DNA of 64,000 nt from a virus, in IMG/VR virus record IMGVR_UViG_3300033148_003679, positions 20,324-84,323 of that record. One strand, 5' to 3'. Position numbers and translations under genes: made by a program. Shown piece by piece: positions 2,515 to 42,339 of the stretch (positions are counted from its first letter, which is position 1; each line of letters opens with the position of its first letter). The notes under the pieces were generated by a model. The model was not told the origin of the DNA and searched no databases. It worked only from the letters and a program-made list of their open reading frames with translations.

Positions 2515-3078
2515 TTAACCTCTCTTCTTTCTTTTTCGTAAAGCCGCCTGTACCCTCTTGTTCTGTGTAAGTCGGGACAATGCTCTAAGAGGATGCGAAT
2601 AACCAGCCGCTTTAACAGCTTTAAGAGGGTCTAACCCTTCGCGACGATATATCACATAGAGAGCCTGTTTTTCGGTCAAATCTTTGTATTGAGACAGTTC
2701 CGTTATCTTGACCTCTGGTTTATCAGTATAATCGGATTCCTGAAACTTATTCACATCCAGTTTACCGGCTAACGTTTCGGCGACAACCCGCATCCGCTGA
2801 TTGACTTTTATCTGTTTTTCGAGCGGTATATCAACTTTGCTGTTCTTGAGTTTATGTGACATGTCTCGTAGAAGTTTGGACACAACCTCTTCGTACCGGA
2901 AATTTATCTCGTCACCTTCAATTTCTTTCGCTATCTTTTTAAACGATTCCTGGGCTAACCGTCTGACAAACAATCTATACCGTATTGGACATTTTTTGAT
3001 AAGTATTACGAGATAACTTACAAGAAAAGTACTGACAATCCCGATAGGAAACAAATGTTCTACAATCCATTCTATCAT
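2515..3078 (-). CDS. Membrane-anchored protein with C-terminal terS-like HTH
   Basis: N-terminal TM helix; LTEKQALY...KAVKAAGYSHP resembles the terS HTH. Confidence 0.55.
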   Translation of the reverse strand: MIEWIVEHLFPIGIVSTFLVSYLVILIKKCPIRYRLFVRRLAQESFKKIAKEIEGDEINFRYEEVVSKLLRDMSHKLKNSKVDIPLEKQIKVNQRMRVVAETLAGKLDVNKFQESDYTDKPEVKITELSQYKDLTEKQALYVIYRREGLDPLKAVKAAGYSHPLRALSRLTQNKRVQAALRKRKKRG

Positions 3079-3112
3079 TTTTTATATTCTCCTGCTACTA
3101 TATACATGTTTA

Positions 3113-3277
3113 TCAACGACGCCGGTTACGCGGTCTACCACGACGAACCGTTCCGCGACGACTTGTTCCACGACGCGAAACATTTAAGCTCCGTCTAGTA
3201 CCGGTCCTACACGGGCCTAACCCGCGTCCAGTACGAGGACCTGCACCGTTCGGGCCTGTCCCATCTCTATTGGGCAT
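3113..3277 (-). CDS. DUF5320-like small Gly/Arg-rich protein (54 aa)
   Basis: Hand-translated MPNRDGTGPNGAGPRTGRGLGPC...RRGRPRNRRR; GGAGGTG RBS. Confidence 0.7.
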   Translation of the reverse strand: MPNRDGTGPNGAGPRTGRGLGPCRTGTRRSLNVSRRGTSRRGTVRRGRPRNRRR

Positions 3278-20712: not shown

Positions 20713-21183
20713 GTGGTATATAGAATGGATGATATGCAGGCAATTGTTCGTAAAATGGTTGTGTCTGTTGTAGACGACCGAATGCAAGGTATAAATGTTC
20801 AGCTCAAAACATTGTGCCGGAAAATTTCGGTTATTTGTAACGAGTTGCAGTCTGTTCATGAAAAGAAACTTGAACGTATTCGGGAAATAGCAACGAGCGA
20901 CAAAGAGGGTGTACGAGCTACAGATATAAGCGAATCTGTCCGAGACGTGTTTGCAGACTTTTTTGACAGTAAAGACGATCCTTTGGCAGACGTTGTTTCT
21001 AAACGGTCTGACAAAAAAGAGGATGACGGCAAGAAAGTTAAACCTGGTGTACTTGATATAGCGGAAACGAGTATAAAAAGTAAACCGACAAAACAGAATG
21101 TTGTACCTGCAAGCAGTTCGAGTTTAGCGTCTCAGTTTGGAAAGTTTGACGGTGGTAACGGCGAGATTCAGCAGATAGTGTGA
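20713..21183 (+). CDS. Hypothetical protein immediately upstream of the pentamer arrays
   Basis: 156 aa ORF. Confidence 0.6.
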   Translation: MVYRMDDMQAIVRKMVVSVVDDRMQGINVQLKTLCRKISVICNELQSVHEKKLERIREIATSDKEGVRATDISESVRDVFADFFDSKDDPLADVVSKRSDKKEDDGKKVKPGVLDIAETSIKSKPTKQNVVPASSSSLASQFGKFDGGNGEIQQIV

Positions 21184-21214
21184 GACGAGTGTAGAGTGTT
21201 ATGTGATACATTGC

Positions 21215-21704
21215 AGTAGGGTGTGGTGAGGTCGGATAGGGTCGTGTCGGGTGAGGTAAGGTATGGTGCAATGGGGTAAGGTCAGGTGAGGTAAGGTGCG
21301 GTAGGGATTGGTCTTTCTTCAATAAAGGAATGGTATTAGATAAAAGGAACGAAGTAAGCATTAGAATTTGATAGAGTAATGTCAAGTAGAGTCGGGTCTG
21401 GTCAGGTGCGGTGATGCAAGGTGAGGTGCGGTCGGGTTAAGTACGGTGCGGTGTGGTCATGTCGGGTACGGTCTGGTGCGGTGCGGTCGGATCTGGTGCG
21501 GTAAGATAAGGTGAGGTAAGGTTACTTTTTTTCTAGTAAAGGAATGATAGGCAGTAAAGGAGTGCAAATTAGAGTGTAACATTCAATATGGTGAGGTATG
21601 ATAGGGTGGAGCGGGGTCTGGTCGGGTCCGGTCAGGTATGGTGTGGTATGGCGAGGTCCGGTATGGTCAGGTGAGGTATGGTACGGTGCGGTGGGGTAGG
21701 GTTT
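21215..21704 (+). ncRNA. Three GGT-NN pentamer arrays (21215-21314, 21370-21524, 21590-21704); putative guide RNAs
   Basis: Strict 5-nt phase with constant GG(T/C) and variable NN. Each array ends ggtA(G/A)-gg(t/a)T; arrays 1 and 2 are followed by a pyrimidine tract and TAAAGGA. Confidence 0.75.
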
Positions 21705-21841
21705 GGAACACAAACTCACAATGACCATGATAAAATGCGATGGCAAGTACAAAGAAAGGAGAACGCTTATAAGACAACGAATGTGGTGTGGTTGGTTTTG
21801 GGAATAGAAGAACGAAAAATAAGTAGAAAGGTAGGTAGCCA

Positions 21842-22447
21842 ATGTATCAATCTGTGAATGTAAAAATAAAGGGTGTGGCTCCAGTTATGTTTCACAACCC
21901 GCAACTTGCAAATCCTCTTAACTCGTTTACACAGGGAATCAAGAAAATCTCTGCAAAACGAAACAAGACAGAAGAAGATTTTAAAGAGATGTCCAGACTG
22001 GAATTTTTGGGCGGTCTCTATGTAGACGACAAAGGTAAGGTAATCGTTCCGGCAGAAATGCTGGAAGCGTCTCTACTGTCTGGTGCCAAGAAGAAGAGAC
22101 GTGGTGCTAAGTTTAAGGCGGCGGTTTTGGTGCCGGAATCAGCTCGTTTGATTTATGACGGGCCGAAAAATATCGAGAAGTTGGGACGGGACTCTCAGTT
22201 TGTCGATATTCGGAACGTTACAATTCAGCGTAATACAATTATGAGAACTCGACCTGTTTTTAAGACATGGCAAGCTGAGTTTATGATAATGTTTGATTCT
22301 ACCCTAGTTAATAAGAACGAGGTGGAAGAAGCATTGAACGATGCTGGGCAGCAGTGCGGGATTGGAGATTATCGGCCAAGATACGGACGGTTTATGGTAG
22401 AAAGTTTCGATGTACTTGGCCCTGCAAACGAAGCTGTTACGGTATAG
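21842..22447 (+). CDS. Stand-alone RAMP/Cas7-like RNA-binding protein
   Basis: N-terminal VKIKGVAPVMFH (RAMP beta1 / P-x-x-H), IVPAEMLEASL (RAMP IPGSSLKG-like), RTRPVF..W, C-terminal Gly loop AGQQCGIGDYRPRYGRF. Confidence 0.75.
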   Translation: MYQSVNVKIKGVAPVMFHNPQLANPLNSFTQGIKKISAKRNKTEEDFKEMSRLEFLGGLYVDDKGKVIVPAEMLEASLLSGAKKKRRGAKFKAAVLVPESARLIYDGPKNIEKLGRDSQFVDIRNVTIQRNTIMRTRPVFKTWQAEFMIMFDSTLVNKNEVEEALNDAGQQCGIGDYRPRYGRFMVESFDVLGPANEAVTV

Positions 22448-22456
22448 TTAAACAAG

Positions 22457-22514
22457 TTTGCCTCTGCTCTATTGCGTGAAAGTTTATAGACAAGCGTAAT
22501 AGGGCAGAGACAAA
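22457..22514 (+). other. Intergenic RNA hairpin
   Basis: TTTG.CTCTGCTCTATTGCG pairs with CGTAATAGGGCAGAG.CAAA, including G-U pairs. Confidence 0.7.
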
Positions 22515-22540
22515 TAAATATAATCACGAGGTAAATACAA

Positions 22541-23017
22541 ATGAGTAAGACGAAAGCTATAGTACAGAGTACTTATGAAGGTCTCGATTTTACAGAGTTA
22601 CGAAAAGGTGACATTATTTCGGTAGCTGAACTGGAACGTCTGTTTGGCTTTTCCCGTTCTATGAACGCATATTCTCTTGCAACCATGCAACTCTGTAATG
22701 ATATTTCGAGATATTTCAGAAGTATCGGTGAAATTGTAACTGTGTGTACAAGAGATTATGCGATTCATATTCTACGCGATTCTGAAGCTGCCGAGTATAA
22801 TGCACTGAAGTTTAAACACGGAATTGACACGGCTGACAGAGCACATGAACGCGCTTTAGCCGTTGATATTGGCAACCTGAAACAGGAAGAGGTTTTAAGA
22901 CATGACCGTAAGTTGTATATTCAAGGTCGTATATTACAGAGTATACGGGTAGCAAGAAAGAAAGCATGTCGTGTTGTAGCACATCATAAGGGTGAAGGGA
23001 TGTTGGTGTTGGAATAG
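22541..23017 (+). CDS. Accessory protein of the pentamer-array locus
   Basis: GAGGT RBS; 158 aa, lying between the RAMP-like gene and arrays 4-7. Confidence 0.75.
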   Translation: MSKTKAIVQSTYEGLDFTELRKGDIISVAELERLFGFSRSMNAYSLATMQLCNDISRYFRSIGEIVTVCTRDYAIHILRDSEAAEYNALKFKHGIDTADRAHERALAVDIGNLKQEEVLRHDRKLYIQGRILQSIRVARKKACRVVAHHKGEGMLVLE

Positions 23018-23043
23018 ACGTGGGTTTTGTTGAAGTCTAGTAA

Positions 23044-23748
23044 TGCAGGATAAGGTAGGGTGGGGTGCGGTACGGTGTGGTGCGGTCCGGTCTGGTCTGG
23101 TGAGGTAAGGTCGAGTTGGGTCGGGTAGGGTATGGTGCGGTACGGTTTGGTATGGTGATGTTAGGTAGGGTCTGGTTAGATCGGGCCTGGTGATGTAAGG
23201 CAAGGTTGGGTAGGGATAGTCTTTCTTTAAGTAAAGGAGTGCAAAATAAAGTGCAAACAAAAAGTGTTGTCGACTGTTGTGATATAAGGTCAGATCAGGT
23301 GAGATCGGATGAGGTCGGGTGATGTCGGGTGATGTCGGGTTGAGTGAGGTCGGGTATGGTCTGGTTCGGTGCGGTCAGATCTGGTGAGGTATGGTAGGGT
23401 TACTCTTTTTCTAGTAAAGGAGTGCAAGTGAAAAGAGTGTAAAAAACATAATTGCAATGAGATTCAATATGGTGAGGTGAGGTTTGGTATGGTGAGGTGA
23501 GGTCTGGTGAGGTCGGGTGAGGTATGGCTTGGTGGAGTCGGGTCTGGTCGGGTGTGGTGGGGTGGGGTTAGGTAGGGTATGGTGCGGTTAGGTTCGGTAG
23601 GGTTTTTTCCATAAAGGAGTGTAGAATAAAATGCAAACAAAAAGTGTTGTCGATTGTTATTGATATGAGGTCGGATGGGATTGGGCGCGGTGCGGTCGGG
23701 TCGGGTAGGGTTTGGTGGGGTGGGGTGAGGTTTGGTCGGGTAGGGTTT
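23044..23748 (+). ncRNA. Four GGT-NN pentamer arrays (23044-23218, 23288-23402, 23471-23605, 23669-23748); putative guide RNAs
   Basis: 35, 23, 27 and 16 units, separated by linkers containing TAAAGGAGTG(C/T)A. Confidence 0.75.
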
Positions 23749-23805
23749 CTCTCTCACATAAACGAATACAAACAAAGGAGCGAGCAAGTAAGGGAACACA
23801 ACGTC

Positions 23806-24330
23806 ATGGACAATCACTCGGAAATCAAAGAAGGGTACAAAGTGTGCAGAGTTGTCGATGGCAACAAACTGGTCTCGGCCACATTTTGTGCTGCGGGTGG
23901 ACAAGTCAGTTACCATGTTGATACATGGACGTATCCGTTAGTTGGTTGTGGGCCATTAACTGTATTTGATTCATGGGACAATGCCAAGAACTTTCAGGAA
24001 CGAGTACCGAAAAATATCGAACGGATTTATAATGTGTCGATGGTGGTGAAAGGATTTTCGTTTCTTGTTATTAGAAGATGTTCATATATACTGTCGCTCG
24101 AAAATAAAATATGGATTCAGAGTATGTTGTTTCATTATGATCAGTTATATAATAGAGATATATATACACGGGAAGTTCTTGTAAACGACTTGCCGCCTAG
24201 CACTGTACTTGACAATCAGTTATATAATAGAGATATATATATACGGGAAGTTCTTGCAAATGATTTACCGCATGGTACTATACTTGCTGACAGAGTTAAG
24301 TTGCACAGATTAGATAAAAGGGAAGTGTGA
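23806..24330 (+). CDS. Hypothetical protein (paralog of the next gene) with an internal ~75-nt duplication
   Basis: EGYKVC...YP..CGPLTVFD...DLP.GTILA; QLYNRDIY.REVL.NDLP occurs twice. Confidence 0.65.
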   Translation: MDNHSEIKEGYKVCRVVDGNKLVSATFCAAGGQVSYHVDTWTYPLVGCGPLTVFDSWDNAKNFQERVPKNIERIYNVSMVVKGFSFLVIRRCSYILSLENKIWIQSMLFHYDQLYNRDIYTREVLVNDLPPSTVLDNQLYNRDIYIREVLANDLPHGTILADRVKLHRLDKREV

Positions 24331-41095: not shown

Positions 41096-41572
41096 ATGCG
41101 GTATATCATAACGCAAGCGCATCTTGACGCTGCTCGAAACGCACATGCATGCGAGTCCAGGCTGAACCTATACCATGCTGGCGACAACCTGTTTGACAAA
41201 CTGACGTACGACGATGCGGTTTGGATTGAAGATAATTTGCCGGGCAATGCAAAATCGATATTGAATGCTTTCGGCGTACCGCTTTACGCTATGGCGCGCG
41301 ACGGCTGCGGCTACGGCCACGGTTACGGCTACGGCGACGGCAATGGCTATGGCTATGGTTACAGCTCCGGCGACGGTTACGGCTACGGCTATGGCTATGG
41401 CTACGGCGACGGCTCCGGCTCCGGCTCCGGCGACGGTTACGGCTACGGCTATGGCGACGGCTACAGCTCCGGTTCCGGCTTCGGTTCCGGCTTCGGCCAC
41501 GGCTCCGGCTCCGGCTACGGCTATGGCGACGGCTATGGCGACGGCTACGGCTATAGCTACTGCGACAATTAA
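41096..41572 (+). CDS. Gly/Tyr/Asp-rich repeat protein
   Basis: GYGYGDG repeats; paralog of 41965-42339. Confidence 0.75.
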   Translation: MRYIITQAHLDAARNAHACESRLNLYHAGDNLFDKLTYDDAVWIEDNLPGNAKSILNAFGVPLYAMARDGCGYGHGYGYGDGNGYGYGYSSGDGYGYGYGYGYGDGSGSGSGDGYGYGYGDGYSSGSGFGSGFGHGSGSGYGYGDGYGDGYGYSYCDN

Positions 41573-41968: not shown

Positions 41969-42339
41969 AAACGATGATGCGATACATCATAACGCAGGCG
42001 GATATTGACGCTGCCAGAACAGCACGTGCATGTGAAAATAGACTGAACCTATACCATGTTGGCGACGATCTGTTTGACAAGCTGACGTATACAGATGCAG
42101 TCTGGATCGAAGATAAATTGCCGGACAGTGCAAAAACGATATTGAATGCTTTTAGCGTACCGCTTTACGCTATGGCGCGCGACGGCTGCGGCGACGGCTT
42201 CGGCTACGGCGACGGCTCCGGCTTCGGCTTCGGCTATGGCTACAGCTCCGGTTCCGGCTTCGGCTCCGGCTTCGGCTACGGCTACAGCGACGGTTCTGGC
42301 GACGGCTTCGGCCACGGCTACGGCAGCGGCGACAATTAA
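41965..42339 (+). CDS. Gly-rich repeat protein (paralog)
   Basis: MMRYIITQA...AC...DKLTY.DAVWIED...YAMARDG shared with 41096. Confidence 0.75.
   Translation: MKTMMRYIITQADIDAARTARACENRLNLYHVGDDLFDKLTYTDAVWIEDKLPDSAKTILNAFSVPLYAMARDGCGDGFGYGDGSGFGFGYGYSSGSGFGSGFGYGYSDGSGDGFGHGYGSGDN

What the first reader, a model, noticed from the sequence alone, without database searches (positions are those of the whole stretch)
23471..23605. Array 6 decodes, as codon positions 1+2, to a RelE/ParE-toxin-like motif
Seen: NN string GA GA TT AT GA GA CT GA CG GA AT TT GG CG CT CG GT GG GG TA AG AT GC TA TC (AG TT tail). Inserting one free base after each NN gives [DE][DE][FL][IM][DE][DE]L[DE]R[DE][IM][FL]G-R-L-R-V-G-G-Y-[RS]-[IM]-A-Y-S. 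Known: RelE-family toxins carry the motif YRLRVGDYRIIY. Inference: the guide may target a RelE-like toxin or abortive-infection gene while skipping the wobble base, which would make it insensitive to synonymous escape. A chance resemblance is possible.
Basis: partly seen in the sequence, partly recalled or inferred. Interest (0 to 1): 0.85.

Follow-up and report, generated by a model that had tools for sequence, protein, structure and literature searches.

The report
VIPR guide RNA spelling ParE/RelE motif
This stretch is a guide-RNA gene of a recently described phage system (VIPR) that reads DNA two letters out of every three, and the twelve units next to its tail probably spell the hallmark motif of a ParE/RelE toxin gene, although no real target gene was found.

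Summary

It is one of seven such arrays around a 201-aa gene. That gene matches the solved 'SUSP1 Vipr protein' (PDB 36pp_D, E 4.9e-36). So this is a VIPR locus, a class published in 2026 (bioRxiv 10.64898/2026.04.26.720920).

The RelE/ParE likeness holds only for units 14-25:
- A ParE profile gives 23.9 bits, against a null of 9.6 +/- 1.7 (0 of 20000 draws).
- The 9-unit seed found 8 exact sites in 185,579 genomes. Three lie in phase in RelE/ParE-type ORFs, and two of these pass Pfam PF05016.

Against the reading:
- Units 1-13 do not fit ParE (-28.4 bits).
- No gene matches the whole array. The best is 32 of 50 NN positions.
- The best 12-unit match (23 of 24) is non-coding.
- 400 further genomes held no new ParE hit.

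Verdict: a new member of a known kind. The toxin target is plausible (about 0.6) but unproven. This scan has noted VIPR before on other DNA: 421 notes in at least 317 genomes.

The parts
23471..23605 (+). Array 6: 27 GGY-NN pentamers, a vrRNA guide region (one long guide or two guides in tandem)
   Evidence: a single register throughout; 25 GGT, 1 GGC, 1 AGT. Same unit as the arrays next to vipr in phiSUSP1 and wV8.
23471..23535 (+). Units 1-13 of array 6: acidic, helix-like if read as codons; not ParE-like in register
   Evidence: -28.4 bits in the ParE register. The units 1-9 seed hits 20 IMG/VR sites, all in-frame D-D-L-I-D-E-L-E-R-type peptides in unrelated ORFs, and none extends.
23536..23595 (+). 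Units 14-25 of array 6: twelve units next to the tail that spell R-L-R-V-G-G-Y-[RS]-[IM]-A-Y-S, the ParE/RelE hallmark strand
   Evidence: 23.9 bits against the ParE profile; 0 of 20000 null draws reach it. Three in-phase RelE/ParE-type ORFs carry the exact 9-unit seed.
23596..23668 (+). 3' tail of array 6: GGTAG-GGTTT, a pyrimidine run, ATAAAGGAGTG, then the leader of array 7
   Evidence: Alignment of the seven tails: GGTA(G/A)GG is invariant or nearly so, and five of seven share the Y-run plus (A/T)AAAGGA(G/A)TG. Fold energies do not differ from shuffles (z -0.9 to +0.3).
21842..22447 (+). vipr: 201-aa Vipr (RAMP-like) protein gene
   Evidence: PDB 36pp_D 'SUSP1 Vipr protein' E 4.9e-36. phiSUSP1 ORF E 3.5e-38, 35% identity. 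131 phage records by tblastn. phrog_4652 E 2.4e-54. No Pfam hit.
22541..23017 (+). 158-aa accessory (vap-like) gene by position
   Evidence: Sits directly downstream of vipr, as in wV8. No Pfam, PHROG or PDB sequence hit. BLASTP against the wV8 neighbour gives E 5.3. The Atlas places it in viral hypothetical clusters, TM 0.73-0.76.
21220..21309 (+). Array 1 (18 units)
21390..21524 (+). Array 2 (27 units)
21590..21704 (+). Array 3 (23 units)
23049..23218 (+). Array 4 (34 units)
23288..23402 (+). Array 5 (23 units)
23669..23748 (+). Array 7 (16 units)

Best explanation
Array 6 is a guide-RNA (vrRNA) gene of a VIPR system carried by a complete, uncultivated 84-kb tailed phage.

Mechanism, taken from the published work on the SUSP1 system and not shown for this phage: copies of the 201-aa Vipr protein line up along the transcript, one per pentamer. 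They hold each GGU and present each NN. The NN pairs with double-stranded DNA in which every third base is skipped. The bound complex blocks transcription.

Inferred here: the twelve units next to the 3' tail (units 14-25) are aimed, in the sense and codon phase of the gene, at the conserved beta-strand motif R-L-R-V-G-(G/D)-Y-R-I-x-Y of a ParE/RelE-family toxin gene. The gene would lie in a host, plasmid or rival element that is not in the collections searched. Units 1-13 would be either a second guide in the same tract or the part of one long guide that covers a non-canonical neighbouring sequence.

My odds: VIPR vrRNA about 0.95; ParE/RelE-type target for units 14-25 about 0.6.
For: VIPR identity:
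- The flanking 201-aa ORF matches PDB 36pp_D 'SUSP1 Vipr protein' (E 4.9e-36, residues 5-188 of 201).
- It matches a phiSUSP1 ORF (E 3.5e-38) that is flanked by 1+3 arrays of 10-15 NNGGT units. wV8 has the same layout.
- There are seven phase-locked arrays with 168 units, 135 of them GGT.
- There is no self-target: the best skip-1 match of A6 in its own genome is 29 of 54, against a mean of 29.1 in 30 shuffles. The paper reports the same for its systems.
- The NN composition of the 154 guide units fits sense codon positions 1+2 of this phage's ORFs (+10.0 bits). The other five phase and strand models score -23.0 to -41.5 bits.

ParE/RelE reading:
- The profile score is 23.9 bits for units 14-25, against 7.3-10.8 for the other arrays. 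Null draws reach it in 1 of 5000 and 0 of 20000.
- A control profile of the Vipr family gives only 9.2-13.2 bits for all arrays.
- The exact 9-unit seed (units 14-22) has 8 sites in genome contigs. Three lie in phase at ...RLRVGGYRII(Y/F)... in small ORFs of three phyla. Two of the three pass Pfam ParE_toxin (59.5 and 32.3 bits, cut-off 23). The third had no Pfam hit at E 0.01.
- Those three give 20 of 24 NN (83%) over units 14-25.
- The ParE-like stretch is the 12 units next to the tail. That is the guide length of SUSP1 complexes (11-12 subunits, assembled from the 3' end; passages).
- Targeting a conserved core motif in wobble phase has a printed precedent, a recombinase active site.
Against: - No natural target was found. 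The 13-unit pattern (units 13-25) has 0 exact matches in viral contigs, metagenome contigs and genome contigs.
- Units 17-25 gave 4 metagenome sites, none of them in an open frame.
- None of the 8 seed sites extends beyond the seed: 25-32 of 50 NN over units 1-25, of which 18 are the seed itself.
- Among 227 natural ParE/RelE proteins, none is compatible with more than 13 of 25 units. Only 2 reach 10 of 12 for units 14-25.
- Units 1-13 contradict the ParE profile in register (-28.4 bits).
- The best 12-unit match is a non-coding spacer with 23 of 24 NN.
- In 401 genomes of one class, the 11-unit pattern with up to 3 mismatches hit 4 genomes. One is the already known ParE gene. The other three are a site with an in-frame stop and two unrelated ORFs. 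The reversed control hit 1.
- The family was picked after seeing the string.
- Expression, RNA ends and the host are unknown.
Confidence: 0.6

Rival explanations
1. Array 6 is a VIPR guide, but the ParE/RelE likeness is a coincidence. The real target is another gene, probably coding, of a rival phage, satellite or prophage that the collections do not hold.
For: - No site extends beyond the 9-12 units.
- Units 1-13 do not fit ParE.
- At 19 of 22 NN, unrelated ORFs also match in phase: '...RRRVRGYRIAY...' and '...RLRVDGASIAY...'.
- One of 5000 shuffles reached the observed profile score.
- By my Karlin-Altschul estimate (not run), a 24-bit local match would be expected several times if all Pfam families had been tried.
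- The targets printed so far are satellites, prophage regulators and vipr genes.
Against: - The p-value for this family is about 1e-5.
- ParE/RelE genes are common on mobile elements, so the prior is not small (my knowledge).
- The match sits exactly on the family's most conserved strand and next to the tail.
- The Vipr control family shows nothing comparable.
Confidence: 0.3
2. The 3' twelve units are aimed at a non-coding site, such as the spacer between divergent mutL-like and serS-like genes seen in four GC-rich contigs. This could be a promoter block or a decoy, as with the REP-directed solo vrRNAs.
For: - This is the best gapped match found: 23 of 24 NN for units 14-25 and 26 of 28 for units 12-25, in L005, L007, L008 and L009. 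There is 1 mismatch in G004.
- Non-coding REP targets are in print.
Against: - The four sites are one orthologous spacer, so this is one event.
- I expect roughly 0.1-0.3 such matches by chance in 596 Gb once the choice of window is counted (my estimate).
- Those contigs have 65-71% G+C, against 43% for the phage, so they are unlikely hosts.
- There is no Rfam family at the site.
- The gene names rest on my reading of the translations, not on a family scan.
Confidence: 0.05
3. The tract is not a guide at all. It would be either a protein-coding repeat or a protein-titrating RNA with 5-nt periodic GGU, like TRAP or CsrA binding sites.
For: The 5-nt periodicity alone would allow this. It was my first thought before the Vipr match.
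Against: - Every forward frame meets TGA from the GGTGA units (sequence).
- The neighbouring gene is a Vipr homologue with a solved structure.
- The same unit is shown to be a guide in SUSP1.
Confidence: 0.03

Closest known systems
Type II VIPR system of Escherichia phage SUSP1 (Vipr + vap1 + vrRNAs; bioRxiv 10.64898/2026.04.26.720920, .720927 and 10.64898/2026.10.15.759431)
   Same: - A homologous Vipr protein (35% identity, E 3.5e-38 and 4.9e-36).
- GGY-NN pentamer arrays on both sides of a two-gene core.
- A conserved 3' tail after most arrays.
- No self-target.
- NN composition that fits codon positions 1+2.
   Different: - The arrays here have 16-34 units, against 9-16 in print and 10-15 in my count for phiSUSP1.
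- The tail sequence differs and shows no significant fold.
- The accessory gene shows no sequence similarity to that of wV8.
- The phage is an uncultivated siphovirus-like genome with no close relative in GenBank phages or in IMG/VR.
- A toxin gene is not among the targets named in the main texts I searched: 0 occurrences of 'toxin' in three papers. Supplements were closed.
Class 1 CRISPR (Cas7 backbone on crRNA)
   Same: A RAMP-fold protein polymerises on a guide RNA and interrupts pairing at regular intervals (paper text).
   Different: - No CRISPR repeats, spacers or adaptation genes are present.
- The period is 5 nt with only 2 paired bases, against 6 nt with 5 paired.
- According to the papers, the action is binding and silencing of dsDNA.
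Phage counter-measures against toxin-antitoxin defence (protein antitoxin mimics such as T4 Dmd; TifA against ToxIN, PMC10853763, seen as a search listing)
   Same: If the ParE/RelE reading holds and the toxin belongs to the host, the outcome would be the same: a phage disarms a TA toxin.
   Different: Here the means would be RNA-guided transcriptional silencing of the toxin gene, not a protein or RNA that neutralises the toxin. Nothing of this was tested. Dmd is recalled, not taken from a call.

Membership tests
VIPR system | Vipr protein (minimal RAMP) encoded next to the arrays | tested here: met
   PDB 36pp_D 'SUSP1 Vipr protein' E 4.9e-36 over residues 5-188 of 201. phiSUSP1 ORF E 3.5e-38. 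129 of 131 phage records cover at least 80% of the query.
VIPR system | vrRNA made of tandem GGY/NN (YNNGG) pentamers with hypervariable NN | tested here: met
   A6 has 27 units, 26 of them GGY. Across all arrays, 140 of 168 units are GGY, and NN takes all 16 values.
VIPR system | Conserved, structured 3' tail after the repeats | tested here: inconclusive
   Five of seven tails share a Y-run plus (A/T)AAAGGA(G/A)TG. Small hairpins are predicted, but the energies equal those of shuffles (z -0.9 to +0.3). No covariation test was done.
VIPR system | Accessory vap gene beside vipr | tested here: inconclusive
   A 158-aa ORF sits in the right place. It has no Pfam, PHROG or PDB match and no similarity to the wV8 neighbour (E 5.3). 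The Atlas finds viral hypothetical clusters only.
VIPR system | vrRNA is expressed, processed and bound by Vipr | not testable with these tools
   No sequencing run was listed for this stretch.
VIPR system | Natural target with at least 80% NN match under the 1-nt skip rule, and none in the own genome | tested here: inconclusive
   Own genome: no match beyond shuffles. Whole array: the best is 32 of 50. Units 14-25 only: 20 of 24 in three RelE/ParE-type genes and 23 of 24 in a non-coding spacer. The searches used exact seeds only, not the papers' nhmmer scan.
ParE/RelE toxin (Pfam PF05016) as the target of units 14-25 | The guide's NN read as codon positions 1+2 fit the family's conserved strand R-x-R-V-G-D-Y-R-I-I-Y | tested here: met
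   23.9 bits on profile columns 53-64, and 10 of 12 columns score positive. 0 of 20000 and 1 of 5000 null draws reach it.
ParE/RelE toxin (Pfam PF05016) as the target of units 14-25 | Gapped DNA matches fall in codon phase inside family members | tested here: met
   Three of 8 exact seed sites lie in phase in small toxin-like ORFs. Two of the three pass PF05016. Both Pfam-passing ORFs have an upstream antitoxin-like ORF.
ParE/RelE toxin (Pfam PF05016) as the target of units 14-25 | A family member matches the full guide | tested here: not met
   The maximum is 13 of 25 units among 227 proteins. Units 1-13 score -28.4 bits in register. There were 0 new ParE hits in 400 further genomes at up to 3 mismatches in 22.

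The most novel reading that the evidence does not exclude
A lytic phage uses a VIPR guide to silence the toxin gene of a ParE/RelE toxin-antitoxin module. The guide pairs with the first two bases of each codon of the family's most conserved strand. Because the antitoxin gene lies upstream in such operons (seen in L002 and L004), a block inside the toxin gene would leave the antitoxin made. This would be an RNA-guided counter-defence against TA-based abortive infection or against the addiction module of a rival element. Units 1-12 might be a second guide for the acidic C-terminal helix of the cognate antitoxin. The only hint is weak: 17 of 24 NN in L003, reached by 6 of 200 shuffles.
Probability: 0.25. 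Interest if true: 0.65.

Novelty: new member of a known kind. Interest (0 to 1): 0.4.

Why it matters
VIPR was described only in 2026. Its printed natural targets are satellites, prophage regulators, other VIPR loci and REP decoys. A guide that spells the hallmark strand of ParE/RelE toxins would add toxin-antitoxin modules to that list. It would also give a concrete, cheap test of whether phages use programmable silencing against TA-type defence. The locus further shows arrays about twice as long as those characterised, which bears on how guide length and processing are set.

The finding does not reveal a new mechanism. The gapped code and its wobble logic are already in print.

Tried and rejected
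**Target searches that found nothing useful**
- The units 13-25 pattern gave 0 hits in viral contigs, metagenome contigs and genome contigs.
- Units 14-22 gave 0 hits in viral contigs.
- Units 17-25 in metagenome contigs gave 4 sites, two with identical context. None lies in an open frame, and NN match is 24-30 of 50.
- A6 units 4-13 gave 0 hits in viral contigs.
- A6 units 1-9 gave 20 viral hits, all a common acidic peptide in unrelated ORFs, with 21-31 of 50 NN.
- Seeds from arrays 7, 5 and 3 gave 2, 1 and 1 viral hits without extension: 21/28, 21/28, 26/42 and 20/42.

**Shuffled-NN controls in the big collections** were not run. In their place I used local shuffles and the tool's reversed-pattern control.

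**Broad anti-ParE guide: rejected for the sample searched.** There were 0 new ParE hits in 400 further genomes of one class.

**Arrays aimed at vipr of rivals: no sign.** The Vipr profile gives 7.4-13.2 bits, against a null mean of 10.5.

**A ParE gene in the phage itself:** none.

**Host:** not determined.
- No tRNA genes in the window.
- No close phage in GenBank phages.
- No relative in IMG/VR.
- No names for the NCBI-held homologues.

**Rfam:** no family matched in 20900-24000 or at the non-coding match.

**Promoter and terminator scan:** no more sites than in shuffles.

**Sequencing runs:** none was listed, and no RNA holder was listed.

**Not used:** Structure prediction, fold search, complex prediction and read laying. 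The PDB sequence match made a fold unnecessary.

**Supplements** of the three VIPR preprints were closed. Their target tables may list toxins.
Full report
**What is in the sequence.** Window 23471-23605 (+) is 27 pentamers in one unbroken register: 25 GGT-NN, one GGC-NN (unit 12) and one AGT-NN (unit 14). It is the sixth of seven such tracts (21220-21309, 21390-21524, 21590-21704, 23049-23218, 23288-23402, 23471-23605, 23669-23748), all on the + strand. Together they hold 168 units, of which 135 are GGT and 5 are GGC. Three tracts lie upstream and four downstream of two ORFs, 21842-22447 (201 aa) and 22541-23017 (158 aa). The window is bases 20324-84323 of a complete 84,323-bp virus record with direct terminal repeats. 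That record encodes a small terminase subunit, a tape-measure protein, ribonucleotide reductase, methyltransferases and a helicase. It has no close relative in GenBank phages or in IMG/VR by the Vipr protein.

**What it is.** A literature search for pentanucleotide repeats in phages returned bioRxiv 10.64898/2026.04.26.720920. I read its outline, its Results and three Methods sections. It describes VIPR systems. These consist of a minimal RAMP protein (Vipr), an accessory gene (vap) and vrRNAs of 9-16 YNNGG repeats followed by a conserved tail. The NN dinucleotides pair with double-stranded DNA under a '1 nt skip' rule, and the skipped base falls mostly on the wobble position of coding targets.

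The 201-aa ORF is a Vipr homologue:
- PDB 36pp_D, named 'SUSP1 Vipr protein', matches at E 4.9e-36 over residues 5-188.
- A phiSUSP1 ORF matches at E 3.5e-38 with 35% identity. It is flanked by one upstream and three downstream arrays of 10-15 NNGGT units.
- Phage wV8 shows the same layout.
- tblastn finds 131 phage records, and 129 cover at least 80% of the query.
- 53 homologues exist among 195 candidates in the large protein collection, the nearest at 53% identity.

The 158-aa ORF has no match in Pfam, PHROGs or the PDB, and none to the wV8 neighbour. I call it vap-like by position only.

Five of the seven tracts are followed by a pyrimidine run and (A/T)AAAGGA(G/A)TG. The predicted hairpins are no more stable than those of shuffles. 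No Rfam family matches.

Two local checks agree with it. First, no array matches its own genome under skips of 0, 1 or 2 beyond shuffles. A6 scores 29 of 54 against a mean of 29.1, and skip 3 trivially finds the array itself. Second, the NN composition of the 154 guide units fits the dinucleotides at sense codon positions 1+2 of this phage's long ORFs (+10.0 bits over uniform). It fits the other five phase and strand models worse (-23.0 to -41.5 bits). For A6 alone the values are +3.8 against -3.2 to -6.1. The target's codon usage is unknown, so this is a rough proxy.

**Is array 6 RelE/ParE-like?** I tested this on natural sequences only.

(a) Seed search. The exact 9-unit seed (units 14-22, 18 specified bases) has 8 sites in one genome for each of 185,579 species.
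- Three lie in codon phase at ...RLRVGGYRII(Y/F)... in ORFs of 88-93 aa from a Methylococcaceae, a Defluviitaleaceae and a Planctomycetota MAG.
- Two of the three pass Pfam ParE_toxin (59.5 and 32.3 bits, cut-off 23). The third has no Pfam hit at E 0.01.
- Both Pfam-passing ORFs have an antitoxin-like ORF just upstream.
- Four of the 8 sites are one orthologous non-coding spacer, discussed below. One is an unrelated site.

(b) Compatibility count. Against 150 representatives of the family (6963 proteins at E up to 1e-3, the best 150 listed), units 13-25 are compatible with 10 of 13 residues at best. Shuffles give a mean of 6.4 and a maximum of 9, and 0 of 300 reach 10. Windows of the other arrays reach 5-8.

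(c) Profile score. A profile of those 150 gives 23.9 bits for units 14-25 on the columns R-I-R-V-G-D-Y-R-I-I-Y-x. The other arrays give 7.3-10.8 bits in sense and 7.9-9.4 in antisense. One of 5000 shuffles of A6 and one of 5000 draws from all arrays reached the observed value. In a second run 0 of 20000 draws did, and the Gumbel p is 1.2e-5.

(d) Control family. A profile of the Vipr family, whose genes are a printed target of some guides, gives 7.4-13.2 bits for all arrays and strands, against a null mean of 10.5.

**Limits of that likeness.**
- In the same register, units 1-13 score -28.4 bits. They miss the conserved L, G and Y of the loop before the strand. The last two units, which are conserved among arrays and probably belong to the tail, score -6.2.
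- Among 227 natural ParE/RelE proteins, none is compatible with more than 13 of 25 units. For units 14-25, 2 reach 10 of 12 and 54 reach 9 of 12.
- None of the 8 seed sites extends: 25-32 of 50 NN over units 1-25.
- The 13-unit pattern has no exact match in any of the three collections.
- The units 17-25 seed found only 4 out-of-frame metagenome sites.
- In 401 genomes of the class of the Methylococcaceae MAG, the 11-unit pattern with up to 3 mismatches hit 4 genomes. One is the known ParE gene. The other three are a site with an in-frame stop and two unrelated ORFs in phase. The reversed-pattern control hit 1.

The guide is therefore not a broad anti-ParE probe in that sample, and matches at the 86% level also occur outside the family.

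**How I weigh it.** The p-value of about 1e-5 is for one family, chosen after the string was seen. By Karlin-Altschul scaling (my estimate, not a run), a 24-bit ungapped match would be expected several times if all Pfam families and all arrays were tried. A pure look-elsewhere argument therefore does not exclude chance.

Conditioning on the family points the other way. ParE/RelE genes are frequent on plasmids, prophages and satellites (my knowledge). A guide that covers their motif would usually score this high. The match also sits on the twelve units next to the tail. That is the guide length of SUSP1 complexes, which have 11-12 subunits and assemble from the 3' end (passages of 10.64898/2026.04.26.720927). 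A printed precedent exists for a guide placed on a catalytic core in wobble phase (passages of 10.64898/2026.10.15.759431). I put the ParE/RelE reading at about 0.6.

**The first half.** Units 1-9 read as an acidic helix. The seed finds 20 IMG/VR sites, all in frame as D-D-(L/F)-I-D-E-L-(E/D)-R-type peptides in unrelated ORFs, and none extends. From residue frequencies I expect a number of that order (my estimate).

One weak hint links it to TA modules. In L003, the antitoxin-like ORF just upstream of the RelE-like toxin holds NELEDELEDEIL, which gives 17 of 24 NN with units 1-12. That was reached by 6 of 200 shuffles. L002 gave 16 of 24 (reached by 26 of 200) and L004 13 of 24 (reached by 159 of 200). 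I do not build on it. Whether A6 is one 25-unit guide or two guides cannot be settled without RNA ends, and no sequencing run was listed.

**The rival non-coding match.** L005, L007, L008 and L009 carry the same spacer between divergent ORFs. I read these as mutL-like and serS-like from their translations; no family scan was run. The spacer matches units 14-25 at 23 of 24 NN and units 12-25 at 26 of 28. It is one orthologous site. The contigs have 65-71% G+C, against 43% for the phage. No Rfam family is there. I treat it as a probable chance match but report it as the best gapped match found.

**What is known and what is new.** The system, the gapped code, the wobble logic and the placing of guides on conserved protein cores are all in print.
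- 10.64898/2026.04.26.720920: outline, Results and three Methods sections read.
- 10.64898/2026.04.26.720927 and 10.64898/2026.10.15.759431: passages only.
- 10.64898/2026.10.21.760802: passages only, and it reports 99 VIPR-like clusters.

'Toxin' occurs 0 times in the main texts of the first three. The 'rele' and 'pare' hits in the third are word-start matches to 'released' and 'parental' in the passages shown.

This scan has already noted VIPR loci many times: 421 notes in at least 317 genomes. Some of those follow-ups claimed guides on defence-gene motifs, and one such claim was later marked down. That made me state the look-elsewhere problem plainly.

This locus differs from the characterised ones in two ways: array length (16-34 units) and the possible toxin target.

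**Verdict.** This is a new member of a known kind, of moderate interest.

Noticed in passing
L005 524-549, L007 477-502, L008 6188-6213, L009 6727-6752 (G004:C7:22718-22752): One orthologous non-coding spacer lies between divergent mutL-like and serS-like ORFs in GC-rich contigs. It matches A6 units 14-25 at 23 of 24 NN positions, the best gapped match found. The contigs have 65-71% G+C, against 43% for the phage.
   Followed up: partly
L003 2391-3264 (-): Two RelE-like toxin ORFs lie in tandem (2391-2663 and 2935-3264), with an 84-aa antitoxin-like ORF between them (2635-2889). Its acidic stretch gives 17 of 24 NN with A6 units 1-12, reached by 6 of 200 shuffles. This contig has 44% G+C, close to the phage.
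   Followed up: partly
window 21220-23748 (all seven arrays): The NN composition of the 154 guide units (GA 25, CG 23, GC 16 of all 168 units) fits sense codon positions 1+2 far better than the other phases or the antisense strand. CG is much commoner (14%) than CGN codons are in this phage's own ORFs (4%).
   Followed up: partly
window 21296-21320, 21511-21545, 23205-23240, 23389-23425, 23592-23625: Six of seven arrays end in AG-GG(T/A). Five are followed by a pyrimidine run and (A/T)AAAGGA(G/A)TG. The GGTAG-GG motif also occurs inside arrays (A6 units 21-22; A7 units 8-9; A4 units 2, 16 and 24), so it may or may not mark processing sites.
   Followed up: partly
window 24140-24286: A 75-bp tandem repeat (2 copies, 87% matches) lies inside ORF 23806-24330, just downstream of array 7.
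   Followed up: no
window 41301-41553 and 42179-42333: There are long runs of the hexamer ACGGCT (42 and 24 copies) in a region of raised G+C (about 0.50-0.53).
   Followed up: no
L023, L026, L031, L034, L040 (IMG/VR contigs): The A6 units 1-9 seed falls in the N-terminal helix of one recurring phage ORF that continues to an ...INSPGG... motif (my reading: ClpP-type prohead protease). Four other hits are a small ORF family starting MPTVYTEVEVDV. None extends along the guide.
   Followed up: no
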